A stretch of 64,000 nucleotides of DNA from Shigella phage vB_SdyM_006. The position numbers and the translations under genes were made by a program. Position 1 is the stretch's first letter, and each line of letters begins with the position of its first letter. Location: the sequence record MK295204; one strand, given 5' to 3'. This document shows, in pieces, positions 15,182 through 60,639 of this stretch. The notes below the pieces were generated by a model. That model was not told the origin of the DNA. It did no database searches and saw only the letters and a list, made by a program, of their open reading frames with translations.

Positions 15182-16599
15182 AAAATTAATCCTTCTAAAC
15201 TATCTGCTAATTTATCAATCTTATCACGAGTATTTAATTCTGCTTGGTTAATCATTTTACCTTGGACTACATTAAGGTCTGGTTCTTCTTTGATAGTCGA
15301 ATCAGTTTCTACCCAGCGTTGATTACCCTTTTTAACAATTAAATTAAACTTGTTCCATTTATTTTTATCTCCATATCGAGATTTAATTTGTTTAATTAAT
15401 TGTTGTCCCATTTGGGCCAGTTCTTCTGTTTCTACAACACCCAACATAAAATCTGCTGTGGCTGGTAAACCTGCTGATTCAGCCACATCTGCCATTTCCA
15501 TATCAGACGCTGACCAGGCTTGTCTTCCGGTTTGAGCAGCTGTCCATAGTACTGTTTGGGTTTCAATAGCAAGACCACGTAATTCTTCAGCAATTGCTTT
15601 AATTAAAGTATAGCTATTTTCTGTGAATTTTAAACGAGTACTACCACAAATGCCAAGATAGTCGATAATAATAACATCTGGAATAAACCCATCTTTTAAT
15701 TTAAGTTCATTTAAAAGAGCTCGGAATGTATTAGCATTAGCGCCGCCAGTCGGATATTGTTTGAATTTTAATCTTCCTGGGGTTTTTCCACCGGAACCTT
15801 TTTTAAGGCGTTCCATTTTTGCCTTAAATTCCGCATAAGTAATATTATTATTATCAATGTCATCTAATGAGACATCCAGTAAATTGGCGTCAATACGTTT
15901 TGCACAGACATGCTCTGCCATTTCCATACTGATATATAAAACGTTATATCCAGTTTGTAAATAGTCTGCAGCTAAAGAACATAGACCAAGTGATTTACCA
16001 ACGTTAACACCTGCCATTAAAATGTTAAGTGTACCTTTTTCAGCACCACCTTTAGTTATTCTATTAAGAATAGATAGTTTAAAAGGAATCTTATTAGCTT
16101 TTGTTTGGTACAATAACCAGCGTTTTTCATAATCATCAAAATAATCATGACCAATATCAGAATCAAAGCAAATAGACAATGCTTCTTGAAGAATCTCAGG
16201 AATAATTCCTTTATCTGGGAGTCTTTTATCGCGTTTGGATTCTTCTAAAGTTGCATTAGTTTGAATTTCGATACTTTTAGACATAGCATTATAAAGAGCT
16301 ATATCTTGGACATACTTTTCTGTAGATTTGACCAGCCAATCAAAATCTTCAGGAGTATTTTTCATTTTCCCTAAAAATTCTTTAGCGGCTTTAAATTGGG
16401 CTTCACCAAGAGAACTATTATCAATAGCAATATCTAATGCTGTCATTGATGGGACAGATTTAAATTCTTCTACGTGTTTTTTAATAGTGTCAAAAACCGT
16501 TTTAGAAGACCCGTCAAAATATTCTTGTTTTAAATATGGCCATACTTTAATGAAATAGTCTTTATTATAAATTAGCTGAGATAATATTACATTAACCAT
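15178..16599 (-). CDS. 41: replicative DNA helicase gp41 (DnaB-like)
   Basis: 473 aa; NILMAGVNVGKSLGL Walker A, RecA-like core, size and position as T4 gp41. Confidence 0.85.
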   Translation of the reverse strand: MVNVILSQLIYNKDYFIKVWPYLKQEYFDGSSKTVFDTIKKHVEEFKSVPSMTALDIAIDNSSLGEAQFKAAKEFLGKMKNTPEDFDWLVKSTEKYVQDIALYNAMSKSIEIQTNATLEESKRDKRLPDKGIIPEILQEALSICFDSDIGHDYFDDYEKRWLLYQTKANKIPFKLSILNRITKGGAEKGTLNILMAGVNVGKSLGLCSLAADYLQTGYNVLYISMEMAEHVCAKRIDANLLDVSLDDIDNNNITYAEFKAKMERLKKGSGGKTPGRLKFKQYPTGGANANTFRALLNELKLKDGFIPDVIIIDYLGICGSTRLKFTENSYTLIKAIAEELRGLAIETQTVLWTAAQTGRQAWSASDMEMADVAESAGLPATADFMLGVVETEELAQMGQQLIKQIKSRYGDKNKWNKFNLIVKKGNQRWVETDSTIKEEPDLNVVQGKMINQAELNTRDKIDKLADSLEGLIL

Positions 16600-16961
16600 T
16601 AGTGTCCCTTAAAGATGTCAAAAATACTAAAACCTTTTTTAACTTCAGTATTTTCAATTTGTGTTTTAATACATTTTTCTATGTGAGGTTCTAAAATATC
16701 TTTAGGTAAATCAGAAAGCGTAGAATAATCATATTCTACTTTACCGTTTTTAATATCTATAGAATGGATATACACTAAGTGTGGAGTATTATTGATTAAT
16801 ACAATTATTTCTTGGATAACATTTTTCATAGATTCTTTAACAACTTCTAATGACTTTTCATATATCTCTTGGTCATTTCCGATGTCATCAAGAATCTTAA
16901 ATTCTTGGTCAAAGTTTTGCATAGATATAGTTTCCGCAGTCCCAAATTCGTCGAAGACCAT
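16599..16961 (-). CDS. hypothetical protein (gene 40 position)
   Basis: 120 aa, ATG start; lies between gene 41 and the uvsX side as gene 40 does in T4; sequence not recognised. Confidence 0.3.
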   Translation of the reverse strand: MVFDEFGTAETISMQNFDQEFKILDDIGNDQEIYEKSLEVVKESMKNVIQEIIVLINNTPHLVYIHSIDIKNGKVEYDYSTLSDLPKDILEPHIEKCIKTQIENTEVKKGFSIFDIFKGH

Positions 16962-18288
16962 TATTATAACAGTTTTCTACTTCAGTTAATTTAGGATTAA
17001 AATAGTTAAGTTTATCTTTTAATTTATGTTTCATAAAAGACGATCGATGATATAACTTATCCTTTACAACATAATAATAACATGGTTCTGTTGTTCCAAT
17101 ATAAGTAAGGGCTAGTTTATTATACACATTACCTTGAGACCATCGTCTATTGGCATAAGATATAAACGATAAACCATTAAGAAGTCTAGAAGCTCCGCCA
17201 ACAACAGTATGTCCTATTTTAGAACATAATCTAAGAAGTTCTAGGTCATAATTATTATTATATCTAGTTTTACCTAAAACAGCCACTTGGACTAGTTCAT
17301 TATTATAAAATAGGCCTTTGTATATCGAACCAGGGCATTTTCCTTGTAAATGATTCTGTTCAACGAACTCATTAGCAAGCTGCTTATCTATATCCTTTAA
17401 TTCACACTTACGAGCATAAATTCTTTTAGATAACCCAAGTTTGTTTTTTATGACAGATTTCCATATTTCTTTTTTAATAGGGTCAATCCATTCGCTTTCA
17501 AAAATATGAAGAAGATGTATTCCTTTAGATTCACATAATTCGGTTTTATCTAAATGATACTTAGATAATCGTTTATCATCTTCTTTTGTTCCTGAAGAAT
17601 GCCAATAAATGCCATTAAATTCTATTGCCAGGGAATGACCAGGAACATAAATATCTAATTCATATGGTAATATAACTTGTTTAGTGTTGTGTTCACAGGA
17701 CACACCTAGAGAACACACGTAGTCATATACTTCTTGTTCTAATTGAGATTTTCCTGATAATGATTTAATAGGATACCCATGTTTTTCCATGAACTTAAAA
17801 GCAGAGGAATGAGAATTTAAAGATAGTCCAAAATGCTCAGCAACATAAGTCCAATGTTTATTTGATAAAGATTCCATTATCTCTTTATTTTTTATGTCAT
17901 CCAGGTTTTTATATTCCAATTGTAGTGGATGTTCACCTAGATTATATTTCTTTCCTCCCCATTTTCGTTGTTTACCGTATTTAGAAACACACGTTGCTTT
18001 TGTTTTGTCTTGGACTTTTTTAGATTTAATAGAACATCTATTAGAACAGACTTCAAGAAGTTTATTTCTATATACAATAACTGGTTTACCACAATGGCAT
18101 TTAGGTATATCATTAGAACAATTTATTCCATTTTCAAGAAACACAACAACCTGGGGTAAAGACACCCCAGGAAAGTTTTTAGTTATTTCTTGAAATAAGT
18201 CTTTACGGTTCTTTTCTAGCCAGGCTAAATTTCTTTTAGAAACTAATCGCCCATTAGAATAGCATAAAGATTTTATTTCATTTATCAT
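16909..18288 (-). CDS. putative freestanding nuclease (homing-endonuclease-like), Cys-rich N-terminus plus Vsr/DUF559-like PD-(D/E)xK motif
   Basis: 459 aa inserted between uvsX and gene 40 (absent in T4 there); CHCGKP...CSNRC; ELDIYVPGHSLAIEFNGIYWHS resembles Vsr-type endonuclease core; ATGA coupling to uvsX. Confidence 0.4.
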   Translation of the reverse strand: MINEIKSLCYSNGRLVSKRNLAWLEKNRKDLFQEITKNFPGVSLPQVVVFLENGINCSNDIPKCHCGKPVIVYRNKLLEVCSNRCSIKSKKVQDKTKATCVSKYGKQRKWGGKKYNLGEHPLQLEYKNLDDIKNKEIMESLSNKHWTYVAEHFGLSLNSHSSAFKFMEKHGYPIKSLSGKSQLEQEVYDYVCSLGVSCEHNTKQVILPYELDIYVPGHSLAIEFNGIYWHSSGTKEDDKRLSKYHLDKTELCESKGIHLLHIFESEWIDPIKKEIWKSVIKNKLGLSKRIYARKCELKDIDKQLANEFVEQNHLQGKCPGSIYKGLFYNNELVQVAVLGKTRYNNNYDLELLRLCSKIGHTVVGGASRLLNGLSFISYANRRWSQGNVYNKLALTYIGTTEPCYYYVVKDKLYHRSSFMKHKLKDKLNYFNPKLTEVENCYNNGLRRIWDCGNYIYAKL

Positions 18289-19436
18289 AGTTCGTCCATA
18301 GCATTAAGTTCTTCAATAGTAGAACGAATACCAGATGAACCAAAAACGTGTTCTTCCACTTTTAGATTCATTAAGTCTTCAACTTCTTGTTCTACTGATT
18401 CGTCATTAATCATCTGTCCTAATTTATAACGTGTTTCAATAGCTTCACGGAACGGGCCATGTTTTAATAATGGTCCCCAGAATGCTACGCATCTTGTATC
18501 TTTAGCACGCCAATTCTTTTCTTCAGGAACGATTTCACCCGTTTCTGTGTCTAAAAATGCTTGAGTATACCAGCCATTTTTAGGTTTAACAACAAATCCT
18601 AATTCCAGACCCATATCAAGCAAACCAGAATAAGGGTCAATACCGCCATCAAATGTGACATCAATAAAGAATTTAGATTTTTCTTTAACTGTACGTGATT
18701 TTTCGACATTTAATACAAATTGATAACCTTGAAGATCTGTACCATCTTTAATTTGACGTCGACCAATAATATATACATTATCAGCAGAATACATTACACC
18801 TGTTCCGCCTGTCATAACAGTTTTACTAAACATTTCCATTGTTTCAATTGTATGGTTAATCCCGACACATGGAATATCTTTTAATGTAAAATATGGAGTG
18901 GCCATACGGAACAATGATTTTAACTGCTTGGCCCGTGTCATATCTGCAACAGATTTTTCATTTAATGCATCTTCAACTTCTTTCTTAGAAGCCAGGTTAC
19001 CAATAGAGTCGATAAATACAATAACCTTTTCACCTCGTTCAATAGTTTCTAATTGATTAATCATATCAATTTTAAGTTCTTCAACGTTTTTAACTGGTGT
19101 ATGAACAACACGGTCTGGGTCAACACCCATAGAACGAAGATAAGCACTTGTGATACCAAATTCTGAGTCATAAAATAAGCAAATTGCATCTTTATATGCT
19201 TTCATATAAGCAGCAACTAATGTTAAACCCATATTTGATTTAAAGTGTTTACTTGGACCAGCTAAAATAGTAATACCAGATTGAAGGCCACCTGTGATAT
19301 CACCGGACAATGCAATATTTAATGTTGGAATTTTAGTTCTTACAACAGACTTCTCATTAAAAAACTTTGATTCACTAAGTACAGAAGTCATTTTATTTGT
19401 TGAAGCTTTCATTAAACGTGTTTTTAAGTCTGACAT
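18285..19436 (-). CDS. uvsX: UvsX recombinase (RecA/Rad51-like)
   Basis: 383 aa; MSDLKTRLMKASTNK...ILAGPSKHFKSN...near-collinear with remembered T4 UvsX. Confidence 0.9.
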   Translation of the reverse strand: MSDLKTRLMKASTNKMTSVLSESKFFNEKSVVRTKIPTLNIALSGDITGGLQSGITILAGPSKHFKSNMGLTLVAAYMKAYKDAICLFYDSEFGITSAYLRSMGVDPDRVVHTPVKNVEELKIDMINQLETIERGEKVIVFIDSIGNLASKKEVEDALNEKSVADMTRAKQLKSLFRMATPYFTLKDIPCVGINHTIETMEMFSKTVMTGGTGVMYSADNVYIIGRRQIKDGTDLQGYQFVLNVEKSRTVKEKSKFFIDVTFDGGIDPYSGLLDMGLELGFVVKPKNGWYTQAFLDTETGEIVPEEKNWRAKDTRCVAFWGPLLKHGPFREAIETRYKLGQMINDESVEQEVEDLMNLKVEEHVFGSSGIRSTIEELNAMDEL

Positions 19437-19490: not shown

Positions 19491-20405
19491 TTAGATTTCC
19501 CAAATTGGGCCTTGAACTATAATATCTTCGTATTTAGGTAATGCATAAATGCATTGTACATTACATTTAAAATATATAAATTCTGCTAAACCTGGATGGA
19601 ATACTTTTTCTGGGTTTTCTTCATATATGATAGTTGGTTTAGACTTCAATGCATGGTAATAATTAGGCTTATTTAATTTTAATAATTCACAATCAGGATA
19701 TTTTTCTTTATCCCAAGAATCATTAGGGTCTGTTATAACCAATTTCAAATCATATCTTTTACATAGTTTATACACATAATCAAAATCATAACATTTATCT
19801 GATATCCTAAACGGAAAGAATACTGTATTCTTCCAATCAAAGTCTATACAAGATTGTTGCATAAACTTCTCAGGAACACCAGGACGAATTACTTCTTGTG
19901 TGACAAGTATTTTATCACTATACGCCCCATAACTAACTAGAACGTCTTTCTGGCACTTATTTAAGACTGTTGTATAGATACTTGAGTTAACAGATTCAAC
20001 ATCAGTATAAATGAACTCGTCTATATATGATCTTGGATTCAAAGGGTCTTTAGTAATATTAAAATTATAAAATACTGGAAAGGTTCCTTTATATCCTGTT
20101 ATATCAGAAACTACTGCATCTAAATGGTAAAATTCGGCAATAGAATCGATAATAAATGTATTATATTCCCAGAAATATTTTCGAGTTTTATATGCATTTT
20201 CTTGATAAACAACTTCTTCAAAAATCACGTTAGGAAAATATTCTTTAAGTTCAGTTATATCTTCGCATTGTAAACTATGAGGAATTACAATTACATCTCC
20301 ATCTTGGTACCGATTTAAATGTAATTGAAGATTACCGTCTTTTAACAGGGAGTATTTCCCTGTTTTATAAGACCTCATAGAATAGATAGGCACAATTAAA
20401 TTCAT
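19491..20405 (-). CDS. hypothetical protein in beta-gt position (candidate transferase, unproven)
   Basis: 304 aa, ATG start; occupies the slot of beta-glucosyltransferase next to gene 42 but shows no resemblance to remembered T4 beta-gt. Confidence 0.3.
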   Translation of the reverse strand: MNLIVPIYSMRSYKTGKYSLLKDGNLQLHLNRYQDGDVIVIPHSLQCEDITELKEYFPNVIFEEVVYQENAYKTRKYFWEYNTFIIDSIAEFYHLDAVVSDITGYKGTFPVFYNFNITKDPLNPRSYIDEFIYTDVESVNSSIYTTVLNKCQKDVLVSYGAYSDKILVTQEVIRPGVPEKFMQQSCIDFDWKNTVFFPFRISDKCYDFDYVYKLCKRYDLKLVITDPNDSWDKEKYPDCELLKLNKPNYYHALKSKPTIIYEENPEKVFHPGLAEFIYFKCNVQCIYALPKYEDIIVQGPIWEI

Positions 20406-20415
20406 AATTATTCTC

Positions 20416-21108
20416 TTATAGAAATGAATTTACATATTCTATATCACGTTCAAAAATATGCGCAGAAACCATTGAATGTGTGTAATGGCCAATTTCTACG
20501 TTACATTCTGAAGCAATATATTCCATTAATTTACCTTGTAAGTAAATATCAAGTTGTAATACTATAGCACAATTTTGAGAACGCATATGAGTATGGGCAT
20601 ATAATTTATTATCACGAATATAATATGTGACAGAATCAGTACATGGATATTCCAATGTTTCGTCGTCAAGTGATAATAATGCTTGGTCTTGTTCTTGAAG
20701 AATTTGAAAAACAACACGTCTCGAACCAGGTTTTTCTTTAAGTTCTTTAAGTAAAACTGGAAGTTGAGCTACAATACGAGGACCATAGAATGTATTGAAG
20801 TTTTCTGGAAGGATATCGCTTTTAGGCTTATCAATAAATTTAGCAACATTAGGATATTCTTTAAATGCTTCAATAGCGTTGGTCCCACCAGAAATCATAA
20901 ATTGCCAGAAATCTTCTGCGTACTTATAATCAATACGGTTTATTTTTTCGTCACTAAATTTATATGTAGAAGGGTCCATTACACGAAATGTTAATGACCC
21001 TATTTCTCTACATGGCCCAATACGAGAATCTACTTTAAATTCATATAGATCAATAACGGTTTCATTAACAGCTTTAAAAGCTTCTTCAAAAGTATTTCTG
21101 ATAATCAT
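20416..21108 (-). CDS. 42: dCMP hydroxymethylase-like (thymidylate synthase superfamily) gp42
   Basis: 230 aa; EYPCTDSVTYYIRD (active-site Cys region) and RSQNCAIVLQLD resemble gp42/TS motifs; position as T4 gene 42. Confidence 0.7.
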   Translation of the reverse strand: MIIRNTFEEAFKAVNETVIDLYEFKVDSRIGPCREIGSLTFRVMDPSTYKFSDEKINRIDYKYAEDFWQFMISGGTNAIEAFKEYPNVAKFIDKPKSDILPENFNTFYGPRIVAQLPVLLKELKEKPGSRRVVFQILQEQDQALLSLDDETLEYPCTDSVTYYIRDNKLYAHTHMRSQNCAIVLQLDIYLQGKLMEYIASECNVEIGHYTHSMVSAHIFERDIEYVNSFL

Positions 21109-60163: not shown

Positions 60164-60639
60164 TTTGTGTCTCCTTTAATTTCATCAAGAAAGTCAAAAT
60201 AAGCGTTAGGATAAAACAATAGAATAAATGGTGTCATTGCTAGCCCAATAGAATACAATATCATACTCAATAAATCTGTAGAATAATGTATAAAGAAAGG
60301 CCAAACTATTAAAATATACATCATTATCATAAAAATAGTGTTCATCATATAAATATTGGACAATTTATGCGGTACACTGTAATACCCGTTTTGGTATCTA
60401 TTGTTATTATTACTTAATGAAATTACAATATCACCTACCGTCTCTTTATCGAAACCTAAATTTATTGTTTCAAACATGACAAAGAGTCCTAAAACTATAC
60501 AACTTATTAAAAATAATAATGAATATGCAAACCCTGCTCCTGTGTTTGCCCACATATCAAATGAGAACAATGTATTTCCAGATAACACAAGTAAAAATAT
60601 AAAGACAACTTTGTTGATTTGAGATAATAAATAATTCAT
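60160..60639 (-). CDS. hypothetical polytopic membrane protein
   Basis: 159 aa; several hydrophobic segments. Confidence 0.35.
   Translation of the reverse strand: MNYLLSQINKVVFIFLLVLSGNTLFSFDMWANTGAGFAYSLLFLISCIVLGLFVMFETINLGFDKETVGDIVISLSNNNNRYQNGYYSVPHKLSNIYMMNTIFMIMMYILIVWPFFIHYSTDLLSMILYSIGLAMTPFILLFYPNAYFDFLDEIKGDTK

What the first reader, a model, noticed from the sequence alone, without database searches (positions are those of the whole stretch)
16909..18288. 459-aa nuclease-like ORF inserted between uvsX and gene 40
T4 has no gene of this size here. The protein has a Cys-rich N-terminus and a central ELDIYVPGHSLAIEFNGIYWHS segment resembling the Vsr/DUF559 PD-(D/E)xK endonuclease core. 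It is translationally coupled to uvsX (ATGA) and overlaps the start of the downstream gene, as expected for a freestanding homing endonuclease.
Basis: partly seen in the sequence, partly recalled or inferred. Interest (0 to 1): 0.55.

Follow-up and report, generated by a model that had tools for sequence, protein, structure and literature searches.

The report
Hef-like homing endonuclease beside uvsX
The ORF is a real gene of a known type, a free-standing "Hef-like" homing endonuclease (a selfish DNA-cutting gene) wedged between the phage recombinase gene uvsX and head gene 40. It is already annotated as such in GenBank, and the role of its conserved Mom-like C-terminal domain is still unknown.

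Summary
A 459-aa ORF lies on the minus strand at 16909..18288. Its ATG overlaps the uvsX stop codon (ATGA), and its 3' end overlaps the start of gene 40.

The window is about 98.7% identical to Proteus phage phiP4-3. The protein is 100% identical to AUM58599.1, annotated "Hef-like homing endonuclease".

The protein has three modules:
- an N-terminal DNA-binding region with a Cys4 zinc ribbon and a helical, HTH-like unit;
- a Vsr/DUF559-like nuclease of the EDxHD homing-endonuclease family;
Its nearest solved relative is phage Mu Mom.

T4 and the Gualtarvirus phages join uvsX directly to gene 40. All sampled Bragavirus phages and Providencia phage PSTCR6 carry the insert.

Every full-length relative I looked up at 50% identity or more (seven metagenomic phages) also sits next to uvsX. 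Six lie just upstream of it and one lies inside a split intein in uvsX. More distant sublineages sit at gp23/24 or nrdA/B. This pattern is typical of a site-specific mobile endonuclease, probably one aimed at uvsX.

The gene is under purifying selection (dN/dS about 0.12). A conserved terminator-like hairpin lies 118 nt inside it.

The parts
16909..18288 (-). hef-like gene, 459 codons plus stop
   Evidence: ORF. 100% identical to phiP4-3 AUM58599.1 'Hef-like homing endonuclease'. PHROG 3339 'homing endonuclease' E 4.8e-152.
17779..18288 (-). N-terminal DNA-binding region (residues 1-170): helical domain, zinc ribbon, flexible linker, helical HTH-like unit
   Evidence: The AF2 model has helices at 2-52, 83-104 and 129-169, with low pLDDT at 105-128. 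No Pfam family matches except a weak A2L zinc ribbon. Homologs carry different N-terminal modules here, such as PF24308, PF05265 and PF14311. The DNA-binding role is inferred.
18025..18111 (-). Cys4 zinc ribbon (residues 60-88; C64, C66, C81, C85)
   Evidence: The four Cys are conserved in 45-47 of 52 homologs. Weak Pfam A2L_zn_ribbon hit at 60-82.
17434..17745 (-). Vsr-like (EDxHD) nuclease domain, residues 182-285; predicted active site E184, D212, E223, N225, H230, H245
16912..17433 (-). C-terminal Mom-like GNAT domain, residues 286-459
18285..18288 (-). ATGA overlap of the uvsX stop and the hef start
   Evidence: Sequence ...GAA CTA TGA / ATG ATA AAT.... The same junction occurs in SJ_PmiM and Pm5461.
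18140..18171 (-). Conserved terminator-like hairpin inside hef (nt +118..+139), followed by a T-rich run
   Evidence: CCTGGGGTGTCTTTACCCCAGG followed by TTGTTGTGTT. Seven GC-rich pairs are invariant in window, SJ_PmiM, Pm5461 and PSTCR6. The eighth pair shows a compensatory change, U-A to C-G. Function is inferred.
16909..16922 (-). Overlap of the hef 3' end with the gene 40 start (ATG at 16922)
   Evidence: The same 14-nt overlap is annotated in SJ_PmiM, Pm5461 and PSTCR6.
18285..19436 (-). uvsX (RecA-like recombinase), upstream neighbour and probable target gene
   Evidence: Pfam hits. All examined relatives at 50% identity or more are adjacent to or inside uvsX.
16599..16922 (-). gene 40 (head vertex assembly chaperone), downstream neighbour
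   Evidence: Pfam PF11113 E 7e-20 and PHROG 999. Annotation.

Best explanation
[quoted passage not shown] Hef-type enzymes are the phage branch of the Vsr-like 'EDxHD' family, and this copy is inserted between uvsX and gene 40 of a Bragavirus (Proteus phage phiP4-3-like) genome.

Shown here: the gene is intact, under purifying selection, and built from three modules. These are a variable N-terminal zinc-ribbon plus helical region, a Vsr-like nuclease with the family's catalytic residues, and a C-terminal Mom-like GNAT domain. The nuclease and GNAT domains together form the conserved core of the whole Hef family.

Inferred: the gene is transcribed with uvsX and translated by coupling at the ATGA junction. 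A conserved terminator-like hairpin 118 nt into the ORF probably keeps its expression low. In mixed infections the enzyme cuts the uvsX region of related phages that lack the gene. Recombinational repair then copies hef and neighbouring markers into the cut genome, which is homing or marker exclusion.

The target is probably within or next to uvsX. The closest relatives in seven other phage lineages are also tied to uvsX, at three different insertion points: upstream, inside a split intein, and downstream.

The GNAT domain's role is unresolved. I think it most likely acts as an obligatory DNA- or base-binding partner of the nuclease, and less likely as an active DNA-modifying transferase.
For: Identity: the protein is 100% identical to the annotated phiP4-3 'Hef-like homing endonuclease'. 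It is 54.8% identical to U5 Hef over residues 159-456, E 1e-92. PHROG 3339 'homing endonuclease' E 4.8e-152.

Nuclease: there is a profile hit to I-Bth0305I, and D212 and H230 align with that enzyme's D196 and H213, the residues mutated in 3r3p. E184, D212, E223, H230 and H245 are conserved in 47-51 of 52 homologs. Taylor et al. 2011 place Hef-type enzymes in the EDxHD family.

Presence and absence: the insert is absent from T4, Morganella MP1 and Providencia PSTRCR_127. It is present in phiP4-3, SJ_PmiM, PM2, Pm5461 and PSTCR6.

Locus association: P0006, P0009, P0013, P0020, P0021 and P0024 lie immediately upstream of uvsX. P0008 lies inside a split intein in uvsX. The degenerate copies in L022 lie inside a fractured uvsX. 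Sublineages at 41-47% identity sit between gp23 and gp24 in two subfamilies, and U5 Hef sits between nrdA and nrdB.

Selection: dN/dS is 0.12-0.13 overall and at most 0.24 in each domain.

Expression: ATGA junction; conserved hairpin with one compensatory pair; no T4-type late promoter nearby.
Against: No cleavage, target site or homing has been shown for this protein. The hef gene is present at the same site in every sampled Bragavirus and in PSTCR6. Its divergence is similar to, or somewhat above, that of the flanking genes (dS 0.96-0.98 against 0.59-0.78). It is therefore an old, vertically inherited resident, and there is no sign of recent transfer. Comparing the uvsX L2-loop DNA of hef-plus and hef-minus phages showed no diagnostic difference, so the target is not located. 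By my alignment the fifth EDxHD residue (Asp) is a conserved His (H245). A strongly conserved GNAT domain is not part of any characterised homing-endonuclease mechanism, and the standard homing model leaves it unexplained.
Confidence: 0.75

Rival explanations
1. It is a single-chain restriction-modification-like weapon. The Mom-like domain covalently modifies adenines in the phage's own DNA, and the fused nuclease attacks unmodified host or superinfecting phage DNA. This is the reading Iyer et al. proposed for REase-Mom fusions in jumbo phages.
For: Iyer et al. 2021 describe Mom domains fused to REase-fold nucleases and predict this function. The GNAT domain holds 21 of the 22 invariant columns. 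Counterparts of the Mom residues H58, R111, R151 and Y159 are invariant (H313, R353, R382, Y389), and a G364-G-A-S loop sits where GNATs bind a phosphate. The gene is fixed in the genus and under purifying selection. One homolog (P0116) has lost every nuclease catalytic residue but keeps all the GNAT invariants.
Against: Mom D149 is Asn (N380) in 51 of 52 homologs. The invariant Mom PRNxES motif, which contains the essential S124, falls in an alignment gap. The Pfam Mom score is below the gathering cut-off. Each sublineage is tied to one conserved gene (uvsX, gp23/24 or nrdA/B), which is the hallmark of site-specific homing endonucleases rather than general restriction enzymes. Genomes carry up to 11-12 copies, as selfish elements do. 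From memory of the Sandegren 2005 abstract, U5 Hef cleaves near its own gene and also cuts its own phage's DNA. In a co-infected cell a diffusible modifier cannot tell the two genomes apart.
Confidence: 0.12
2. It is a domesticated or stranded endonuclease. The gene arrived by homing long ago and no longer moves. It is kept because it benefits the phage, for example by excluding competing phage genomes or by stimulating recombination at the uvsX-40-41 operon.
For: The gene sits at the same site in all five Bragavirus records and in PSTCR6. Its divergence tracks the flanking genes, and dN/dS is 0.12. It overlaps both neighbours tightly and contains a conserved hairpin in the position where hef-less relatives carry the uvsX terminator.
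Against: This reading cannot be told apart from an active homing endonuclease in a population where hef-less alleles still circulate. Marker exclusion is itself a consequence of homing-type cleavage. The same sublineage has colonised at least three positions around uvsX in other phages, so it has been mobile.
Confidence: 0.1
3. It is a decaying, non-functional remnant of a homing endonuclease gene.
For: Homing endonuclease genes commonly degenerate once fixed. Degenerate Hef copies do exist in a fractured uvsX locus (L022).
Against: The ORF is full-length, all conserved catalytic and invariant residues are present, and every domain has dN/dS of 0.07-0.24 over dS of about 1.
Confidence: 0.03

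Closest known systems
Hef of T-even phage U5 (Sandegren, Nord and Sjoberg 2005, NAR 33:6203; GenBank AY262133)
   Same: 54.8% identity over the nuclease plus GNAT core (residues 159-456). Both are free-standing genes wedged between two conserved T4-type genes and overlapping both of them.
   Different: U5 Hef is 544 aa, has a different N-terminal region, and lies between nrdA and nrdB. This gene is 459 aa and lies between uvsX and gene 40. I could not read the 2005 paper here, so Hef's reported cleavage activity is cited from memory.
I-Bth0305I and the Vsr-like 'EDxHD' homing endonuclease family (Dassa 2009, PMC2677866; Taylor 2011, PMC3239194; PDB 3r3p)
   Same: The nuclease domain is homologous (profile E 6.9e-5). 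D212, N225, H230 and E184 align with D196, N208, H213 and E170. Both are associated with a recA-family gene. Relatives occur in 'fractured genes' with split inteins.
   Different: I-Bth0305I is intron-encoded, has NUMOD/HTH N-terminal modules, and ends with the nuclease domain. It has no GNAT domain. The last Asp of EDxHD aligns with a conserved His (H245) here.
Phage Mu Mom (PDB 8bv8), a GNAT-fold enzyme that uses Gly-tRNA(Gly) to carbamoylmethylate adenine N6 in dsDNA (PMC13219725; PMC7261163)
   Different: Identity is only 15-21%. The Pfam score is below the cut-off. D149 is Asn, and the PRNxES(S124) motif, W48 and W181 are not conserved. The domain is fused to a nuclease, whereas Mom stands alone. 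No modification activity is known.
REase-Mom fusion proteins of jumbo phages (Iyer, Anantharaman, Krishnan, Burroughs and Aravind 2021, PMC7824862)
   Same: The two-domain core is the same (a restriction-endonuclease-fold nuclease plus a Mom-family GNAT), so this is very probably the same protein family under another name.
   Different: That paper interprets the fusions as restriction plus protective modification. The Hef literature interprets them as homing endonucleases. In the passages I read, neither paper cites the other view.
E. coli Vsr and DUF559 proteins
   Same: Same fold and the same Asp/His catalytic core.
   Different: No evidence of a mismatch-repair role. The gene is phage-encoded and carries extra DNA-binding and GNAT domains. 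One source's label for a homolog, 'G:T-mismatch repair endonuclease' (P0004), is a fold-level name only.

Membership tests
Hef-like / EDxHD (Vsr-like) homing endonucleases | Significant sequence similarity to the founding member, Hef of phage U5 | tested here: met
   tblastn gives 54.8% identity over residues 159-456, E 1e-92. PHROG 3339 E 4.8e-152.
Hef-like / EDxHD (Vsr-like) homing endonucleases | Vsr-type nuclease fold | tested here: met
Hef-like / EDxHD (Vsr-like) homing endonucleases | Composite catalytic motif E...D..x..H..D | tested here: inconclusive
   E184, D212 and H230 are present and conserved in 47-51 of 52 homologs, and N225 matches I-Bth0305I N208. The final Asp (I-Bth D222, Vsr D97) aligns across a gap with the conserved H245, and D238 nearby is only 34 of 52 conserved.
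Hef-like / EDxHD (Vsr-like) homing endonucleases | Sporadic presence or absence between conserved genes of related genomes | tested here: met
   Absent from T4, MP1 and PSTRCR_127. Present in Bragavirus phages and PSTCR6. Relatives occupy three positions around uvsX.
Hef-like / EDxHD (Vsr-like) homing endonucleases | Site-specific cleavage near its own locus, and homing in mixed infection | not testable with these tools
   Needs enzyme assays and phage crosses.
Mom family (Pfam PF25680), DNA adenine carbamoylmethyl-transferases | Passes the curated family threshold | tested here: not met
   24.2 bits against a gathering score of 27.1, matching only profile positions 3-51. Some homologs do carry a precomputed PF25680 hit.
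Mom family (Pfam PF25680), DNA adenine carbamoylmethyl-transferases | GNAT fold closest to Mom | tested here: met
Mom family (Pfam PF25680), DNA adenine carbamoylmethyl-transferases | Residues essential for Mom activity: S124, R111, D149, R151, plus H58, Y59, W48, Y159, W181 | tested here: not met
   H313, R353, R382 and Y389 match H58, R111, R151 and Y159. However D149 is N380, Y59 is L314, W48 and W181 are not conserved, and S124 with its PRNxES motif falls in a gap. The near-invariant S367 at the start of helix alpha-3 is a possible but unproven substitute.
Mom family (Pfam PF25680), DNA adenine carbamoylmethyl-transferases | Modifies adenine in dsDNA using Gly-tRNA(Gly) | not testable with these tools
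   Needs LC-MS of DNA or in vitro assays.
Vsr very-short-patch repair endonucleases | Stand-alone enzyme of about 155 aa with the Vsr zinc site, acting on T:G mismatches, usually next to a dcm gene | tested here: not met
   This is a 459-aa three-domain phage protein in a uvsX-40 context. Pfam Vsr (PF03852) did not match at E<=1.

The most novel reading that the evidence does not exclude
Hef-type enzymes are bifunctional. On this reading the invariant Mom-like GNAT domain is catalytically active, transferring an acyl or aminoacyl group to a base in DNA at or near the cleavage site. Alternatively it flips the target base as an obligatory step in recognition. Either way, this very large phage family (about 15,000 representative clusters) would be a 'cut-and-mark' selfish element that links the homing-endonuclease and DNA-hypermodification fields. 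Supporting hints: invariant counterparts of four functionally important Mom residues (R111 and R151 essential; H58 and Y159 mutants drastically reduced), a conserved G-G-A-S loop at the GNAT phosphate-binding position, and one homolog that lost the nuclease site but kept the GNAT invariants.
Probability: 0.2. Interest if true: 0.7.

Novelty: already known. Interest (0 to 1): 0.3.

Why it matters
As a gene call it adds little. The identical protein is already annotated, and the family has been described three times: as Hef in 2005, as EDxHD in 2009/2011, and as REase-Mom fusions in 2021.

Two points are worth keeping. First, this Hef sublineage is tied to uvsX in at least eight phage lineages and at three insertion points, one of them a split intein. 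That gives a concrete, testable guess at the target gene, and it makes uvsX a hot spot shared by GIY-YIG-type, NUMOD3-containing and Vsr-like endonuclease genes.

Second, the two bodies of literature read the same nuclease plus GNAT core in incompatible ways, one as a homing endonuclease and the other as a restriction-modification unit. The function of the most conserved part of the protein, the Mom-like domain, has never been tested. Now that Mom's chemistry and structure are known, that experiment is practical.

Tried and rejected
1. Target site. I compared the uvsX L2-loop DNA, where relatives carry an intein, across hef-plus and hef-minus phages. There was no diagnostic substitution pattern, so the target remains unlocated.

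2. Direct comparison with Mu Mom. Pairwise BLASTP of the C-domain against Mu Mom gave only E 0.048. A profile against the single Mom sequence gave 6% probability. The relationship became convincing only with profile-profile comparison and fold comparison.

3. Dedicated promoter. The sigma-70-like scan was not above the shuffled expectation (24 sites against 18.2 +/- 3.5). The only T4 late-promoter box (TATAAATA) in the window is at 60348. I did not search for MotA-type middle promoters.

4. Papers not held. Sandegren 2005 and Iyer 2009 are not in the library. Statements about Hef's in vitro cleavage therefore rest on my memory of the abstract.

5. Spurious ORF or Vsr repair enzyme. Both were rejected on homology, selection, domain architecture and context.

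6. Second copy. The tblastn search found only one place in the phiP4-3 genome.
Full report
**1. The observation**

One search lists a 459-aa ORF at 16909..18288 on the minus strand, starting MINEIKSLCYSNG. The quoted segment ELDIYVPGHSLAIEFNGIYWHS is residues 210-231, and seven cysteines lie in the first 100 residues.

The upstream ORF (18285..19436, minus strand) is uvsX (Pfam T4_UVSX_C E 1.7e-34, RecA E 2.9e-11). The downstream ORF is gene 40 (Phage_head_chap E 7e-20; PHROG 999 'head vertex assembly chaperone'). Next comes the gp41 helicase.

The junction reads GAA CTA TGA, with the hef ATG formed by the A of CTA and the TG of TGA. The hef stop lies inside gene 40. The overlap is 14 nt if gene 40 starts at the ATG at 16922, as annotated in four related phages. 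It is 53 nt if gene 40 starts at the first in-frame ATG. In T4 itself, uvsX overlaps gene 40 directly, and the GIY-YIG gene segA sits on the other side of uvsX.

**2. Identity of the phage and the gene**

The 5.5-kb region is 98.7% identical to Proteus phage phiP4-3 (Straboviridae, Bragavirus). The protein is 100% identical to AUM58599.1, annotated 'Hef-like homing endonuclease'.

Orthologs occupy the same slot in SJ_PmiM, PM2 and Pm5461 (83-84% aa identity) and in Providencia phage PSTCR6 (67%). The sister genus Gualtarvirus (Morganella MP1, Providencia PSTRCR_127) has no insert. There the uvsX stop and the gene 40 start are 33 bp apart, and the gap holds a terminator hairpin, AGCCCGG-GAAA-CCGGGCT-TT.

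It is not met.

**3. Anatomy of the protein**

An alignment of 52 homologs (A1) gave an AlphaFold2 model with mean pLDDT 92.2.

*Residues 1-170.* These form helices, a beta-ribbon carrying C64, C66, C81 and C85 (conserved in 45-47 of 52 homologs), a low-confidence linker (105-128), and a four-helix unit (129-169) that looks like a helix-turn-helix. Pfam gives only a weak A2L zinc-ribbon hit. In homologs this N-terminal region is swapped for other modules such as PF24308, PF05265 and PF14311. That is expected of a modular DNA-binding domain, but the DNA-binding role is inferred.

*Residues 182-285.* This is a Vsr-type nuclease.
- Sequence hits go to the I-Bth0305I catalytic domain 3r3p: E 0.008 with the single sequence and 6.9e-5 with the profile.
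- Foldseek matches Vsr 1cw0 (prob 1.00, TMt 0.59).
- 3r3p is the D196A/H213A mutant, and those two positions align with D212 and H230. N225 aligns with N208 and E184 with E170.
- These residues, together with E223 and H245, are conserved in 47-51 of 52 homologs. N225 alternates with Asp.
- By my alignment the last Asp of the 'EDxHD' motif is replaced by the conserved H245. The alignment crosses a gap there, so this point is uncertain.

Taylor et al. 2011 already placed 'bacteriophage Hef type homing endonucleases' in this family.

It is a GNAT fold whose closest solved relative is phage Mu Mom.
- Foldseek rank 1 is 8bv8, E 1.7e-6.
- Pfam Mom gives E 3e-5, below the gathering score. PHROG 1384 'Mom-like' gives E 2.8e-7.
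- hhalign against a 36-member Mom alignment gives 82.5% probability, E 9.8e-6.

Of the 22 invariant columns in A1, 21 lie in this domain. Against the residues shown to matter for Mom activity, the result is mixed:
- H58, R111, R151 and Y159 have invariant counterparts (H313, R353, R382, Y389), and E108 matches E350.
- D149 is Asn (N380) in 51 of 52 homologs.
- Y59, W48 and W181 are not conserved.
- The Mom-invariant PRNxES motif, with the essential S124, falls in a gap.

In its place the family has an invariant or near-invariant V-V-G364-G-A-S367 loop at the start of helix alpha-3. GNATs bind the cofactor pyrophosphate at that position. This motif reading is my inference.

**4. Family size and architecture**

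The full protein has 2543 homologs at E<=1e-5 in the word-indexed search. The C-domain alone finds 15,007 representative clusters at E<=1e-3 and 10,543 at E<=1e-10. In nearly all of the best 150 it is the C-terminal end of a 450-680-aa protein. The nuclease plus GNAT pair is therefore the conserved core, and the N-terminus varies. Some phages carry many copies, with 11-12 places in Campylobacter phage genomes.

**5. Evidence bearing on mobility and target**

I looked up the genomic context of seven metagenomic relatives that share the full length at 50-59% identity.
- Six lie immediately upstream of uvsX, in otherwise different neighbourhoods: P0006, P0009, P0013, P0020, P0021 and P0024.
- The seventh, P0008 in L017, lies inside uvsX.

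In L017, uvsX is a 'fractured gene'. The N-part ends ...TVMTGG followed by an intein N-half (CVVKGTKLK...SDVHRF...). The C-part begins with an intein C-half (...VYDISV...NGVVTHN) followed by TGVMYSAD.... Pfam gives weak Hint and Intein_splicing hits on both halves. This is the arrangement Dassa et al. 2009 described for Vsr-like endonucleases.

Pm5461 (locus read) and, from its matching annotation and piece pattern, PM2 carry the same split intein at the same codon. In Pm5461 a 240-aa NUMOD3-containing ORF sits between the halves, in addition to the hef gene downstream. A further locus, L022, has uvsX split by about 5.8 kb containing two NUMOD3 genes and two partial Hef copies.

More distant relatives behave differently. 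Those at 41-47% identity sit between gp23 and gp24 in both Yersinia phage TG1 and Acinetobacter Lazarusvirus phages. U5 Hef sits between nrdA and nrdB.

So each sublineage is faithful to one conserved gene but not to one exact insertion point. This is the signature of free-standing homing endonucleases that cut inside a conserved neighbour. I infer that this sublineage targets uvsX. A comparison of uvsX L2-region DNA did not reveal the site.

**6. Selection**

Against SJ_PmiM and Pm5461, hef has dN/dS of 0.12-0.13. By domain the values are 0.21-0.24 (N-terminal), 0.07-0.11 (nuclease) and 0.07-0.08 (GNAT). Its dS is 0.96-0.98, somewhat above the flanking genes at 0.59-0.78.

The gene is therefore functional and old in this lineage, and there is no sign of recent acquisition. 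This is compatible with ongoing homing cycles in the wider population. It is also compatible with retention for a benefit such as marker exclusion.

**7. Expression (inferred)**

No T4-type late promoter is nearby. TATAAATA occurs once in 64 kb where 16.6 are expected, and that copy is at 60348. Sigma-70-like matches are not enriched. The ATGA overlap suggests translational coupling to uvsX.

At hef nt +118..+139 (window 18171..18150, minus strand) there is a GC-rich hairpin, CCTGGGGTGTCTTTACCCCAGG, followed by TTGTTGTGTT. This is notable in a genome of 31% GC.
- It is present at the same position in SJ_PmiM, Pm5461 and PSTCR6. Seven pairs are invariant, including third-codon positions, and the eighth pair shows a compensatory change from U-A to C-G.
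- It is absent from the five relatives that lie upstream of uvsX.
- Hef-less relatives have a terminator right after uvsX.

I therefore suggest that the hairpin preserves the uvsX terminator or 3'-stabiliser function and, as a side effect, limits full-length hef mRNA. This is untested.

**8. Comparison with the literature, and novelty**

The gene belongs to the Hef family of Sandegren et al. 2005, which I could not read here. Its abstract, as I remember it, reports site-specific cleavage near the gene, on both hef-plus and hef-minus DNA. The nuclease domain belongs to the EDxHD family.

[quoted passage not shown] 2021 interpret as a restriction-plus-protection unit. Some Acinetobacter phage records already say 'putative nuclease/acetyltransferase'. 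Nothing about the gene as a category is new, and this exact protein is already annotated, so I rate it 'already known'.

This analysis adds three things:
- the association with uvsX in three configurations;
- the conserved internal hairpin;
- a residue-level comparison with Mom now that its structure and essential residues are published.

**9. Verdict**

I am about 97% confident that this is a Hef-family member. I am about 75% confident in the whole working model: an active, site-preferring nuclease that drives homing or marker exclusion around uvsX.

The open question is the GNAT domain. I give about 20% to its being a catalytically active DNA-modifying or base-flipping partner, which would be the interesting outcome. 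Overall interest is 0.3.

Noticed in passing
window 18140..18171 (-); L006, L005 and L003 at the same hef position (+118..+139): A GC-rich terminator-like hairpin lies inside the hef coding sequence. It is conserved in four phages, with one compensatory base-pair change, in a genome of 31% GC. Hef-less relatives have a terminator directly after uvsX instead.
   Followed up: partly
L005 (Proteus phage Pm5461) 3780..6107; the same is likely in PM2: uvsX is a 'fractured gene'. A split intein is inserted at ...TVMTGG|C...THN|TGVMYSAD, with a 240-aa NUMOD3-containing endonuclease-like ORF between the intein halves. GenBank annotates the pieces simply as two 'RecA-like recombination protein' genes. 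The window's own uvsX is uninterrupted.
   Followed up: partly
L017 3091..6050 (metagenome contig ERZ1524541 NODE_216): The same split-intein site in uvsX is occupied by a Hef-like gene (P0008, 52% identical to the window protein). This links the free-standing Hef lineage to the intein-embedded Vsr-like endonucleases of Dassa et al. 2009.
   Followed up: partly
L022 1..7087 (Logan SRR27931752 contig): uvsX is split by about 5.8 kb containing two NUMOD3 genes and two complementary partial Hef copies. One (406 aa) has the N-terminus and an intact nuclease motif but a degenerate GNAT domain. The other (P0116, 281 aa) has every nuclease catalytic residue replaced but all GNAT invariants intact. 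This could be decay or a division of labour; it is unresolved.
   Followed up: partly
window, whole 64 kb: The T4 late-promoter box TATAAATA occurs only once (60348, + strand), against 16.6 +/- 4.1 expected from shuffles. It is strongly depleted.
   Followed up: no
window 18290..18330 (-), 3' end of uvsX: The predicted RNA fold of the uvsX-hef junction pairs the 40 nt just upstream of the hef ATG into a hairpin (201-nt region, z-score -5.3). This hairpin is not clearly conserved in PSTCR6.
   Followed up: partly
window 19491..20405 (-) and 20416..21108 (-): In place of T4's segA and beta-glucosyltransferase between uvsX and the gene 42 homolog, this phage has a 304-aa ORF of unknown function that is conserved in Bragavirus phages and PSTCR6. 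The 230-aa ORF beyond it appears to be the gene 42 / thymidylate-synthase-fold homolog, judging from its position and from the annotation of relatives.
   Followed up: no
L019 2965..4479 (Yersinia phage TG1) and L020 2845..4272 (Acinetobacter phage Apostate): A sister Hef sublineage (41-47% identity) sits between the major capsid gene 23 and vertex gene 24, on the opposite strand, in two different Straboviridae subfamilies.
   Followed up: no
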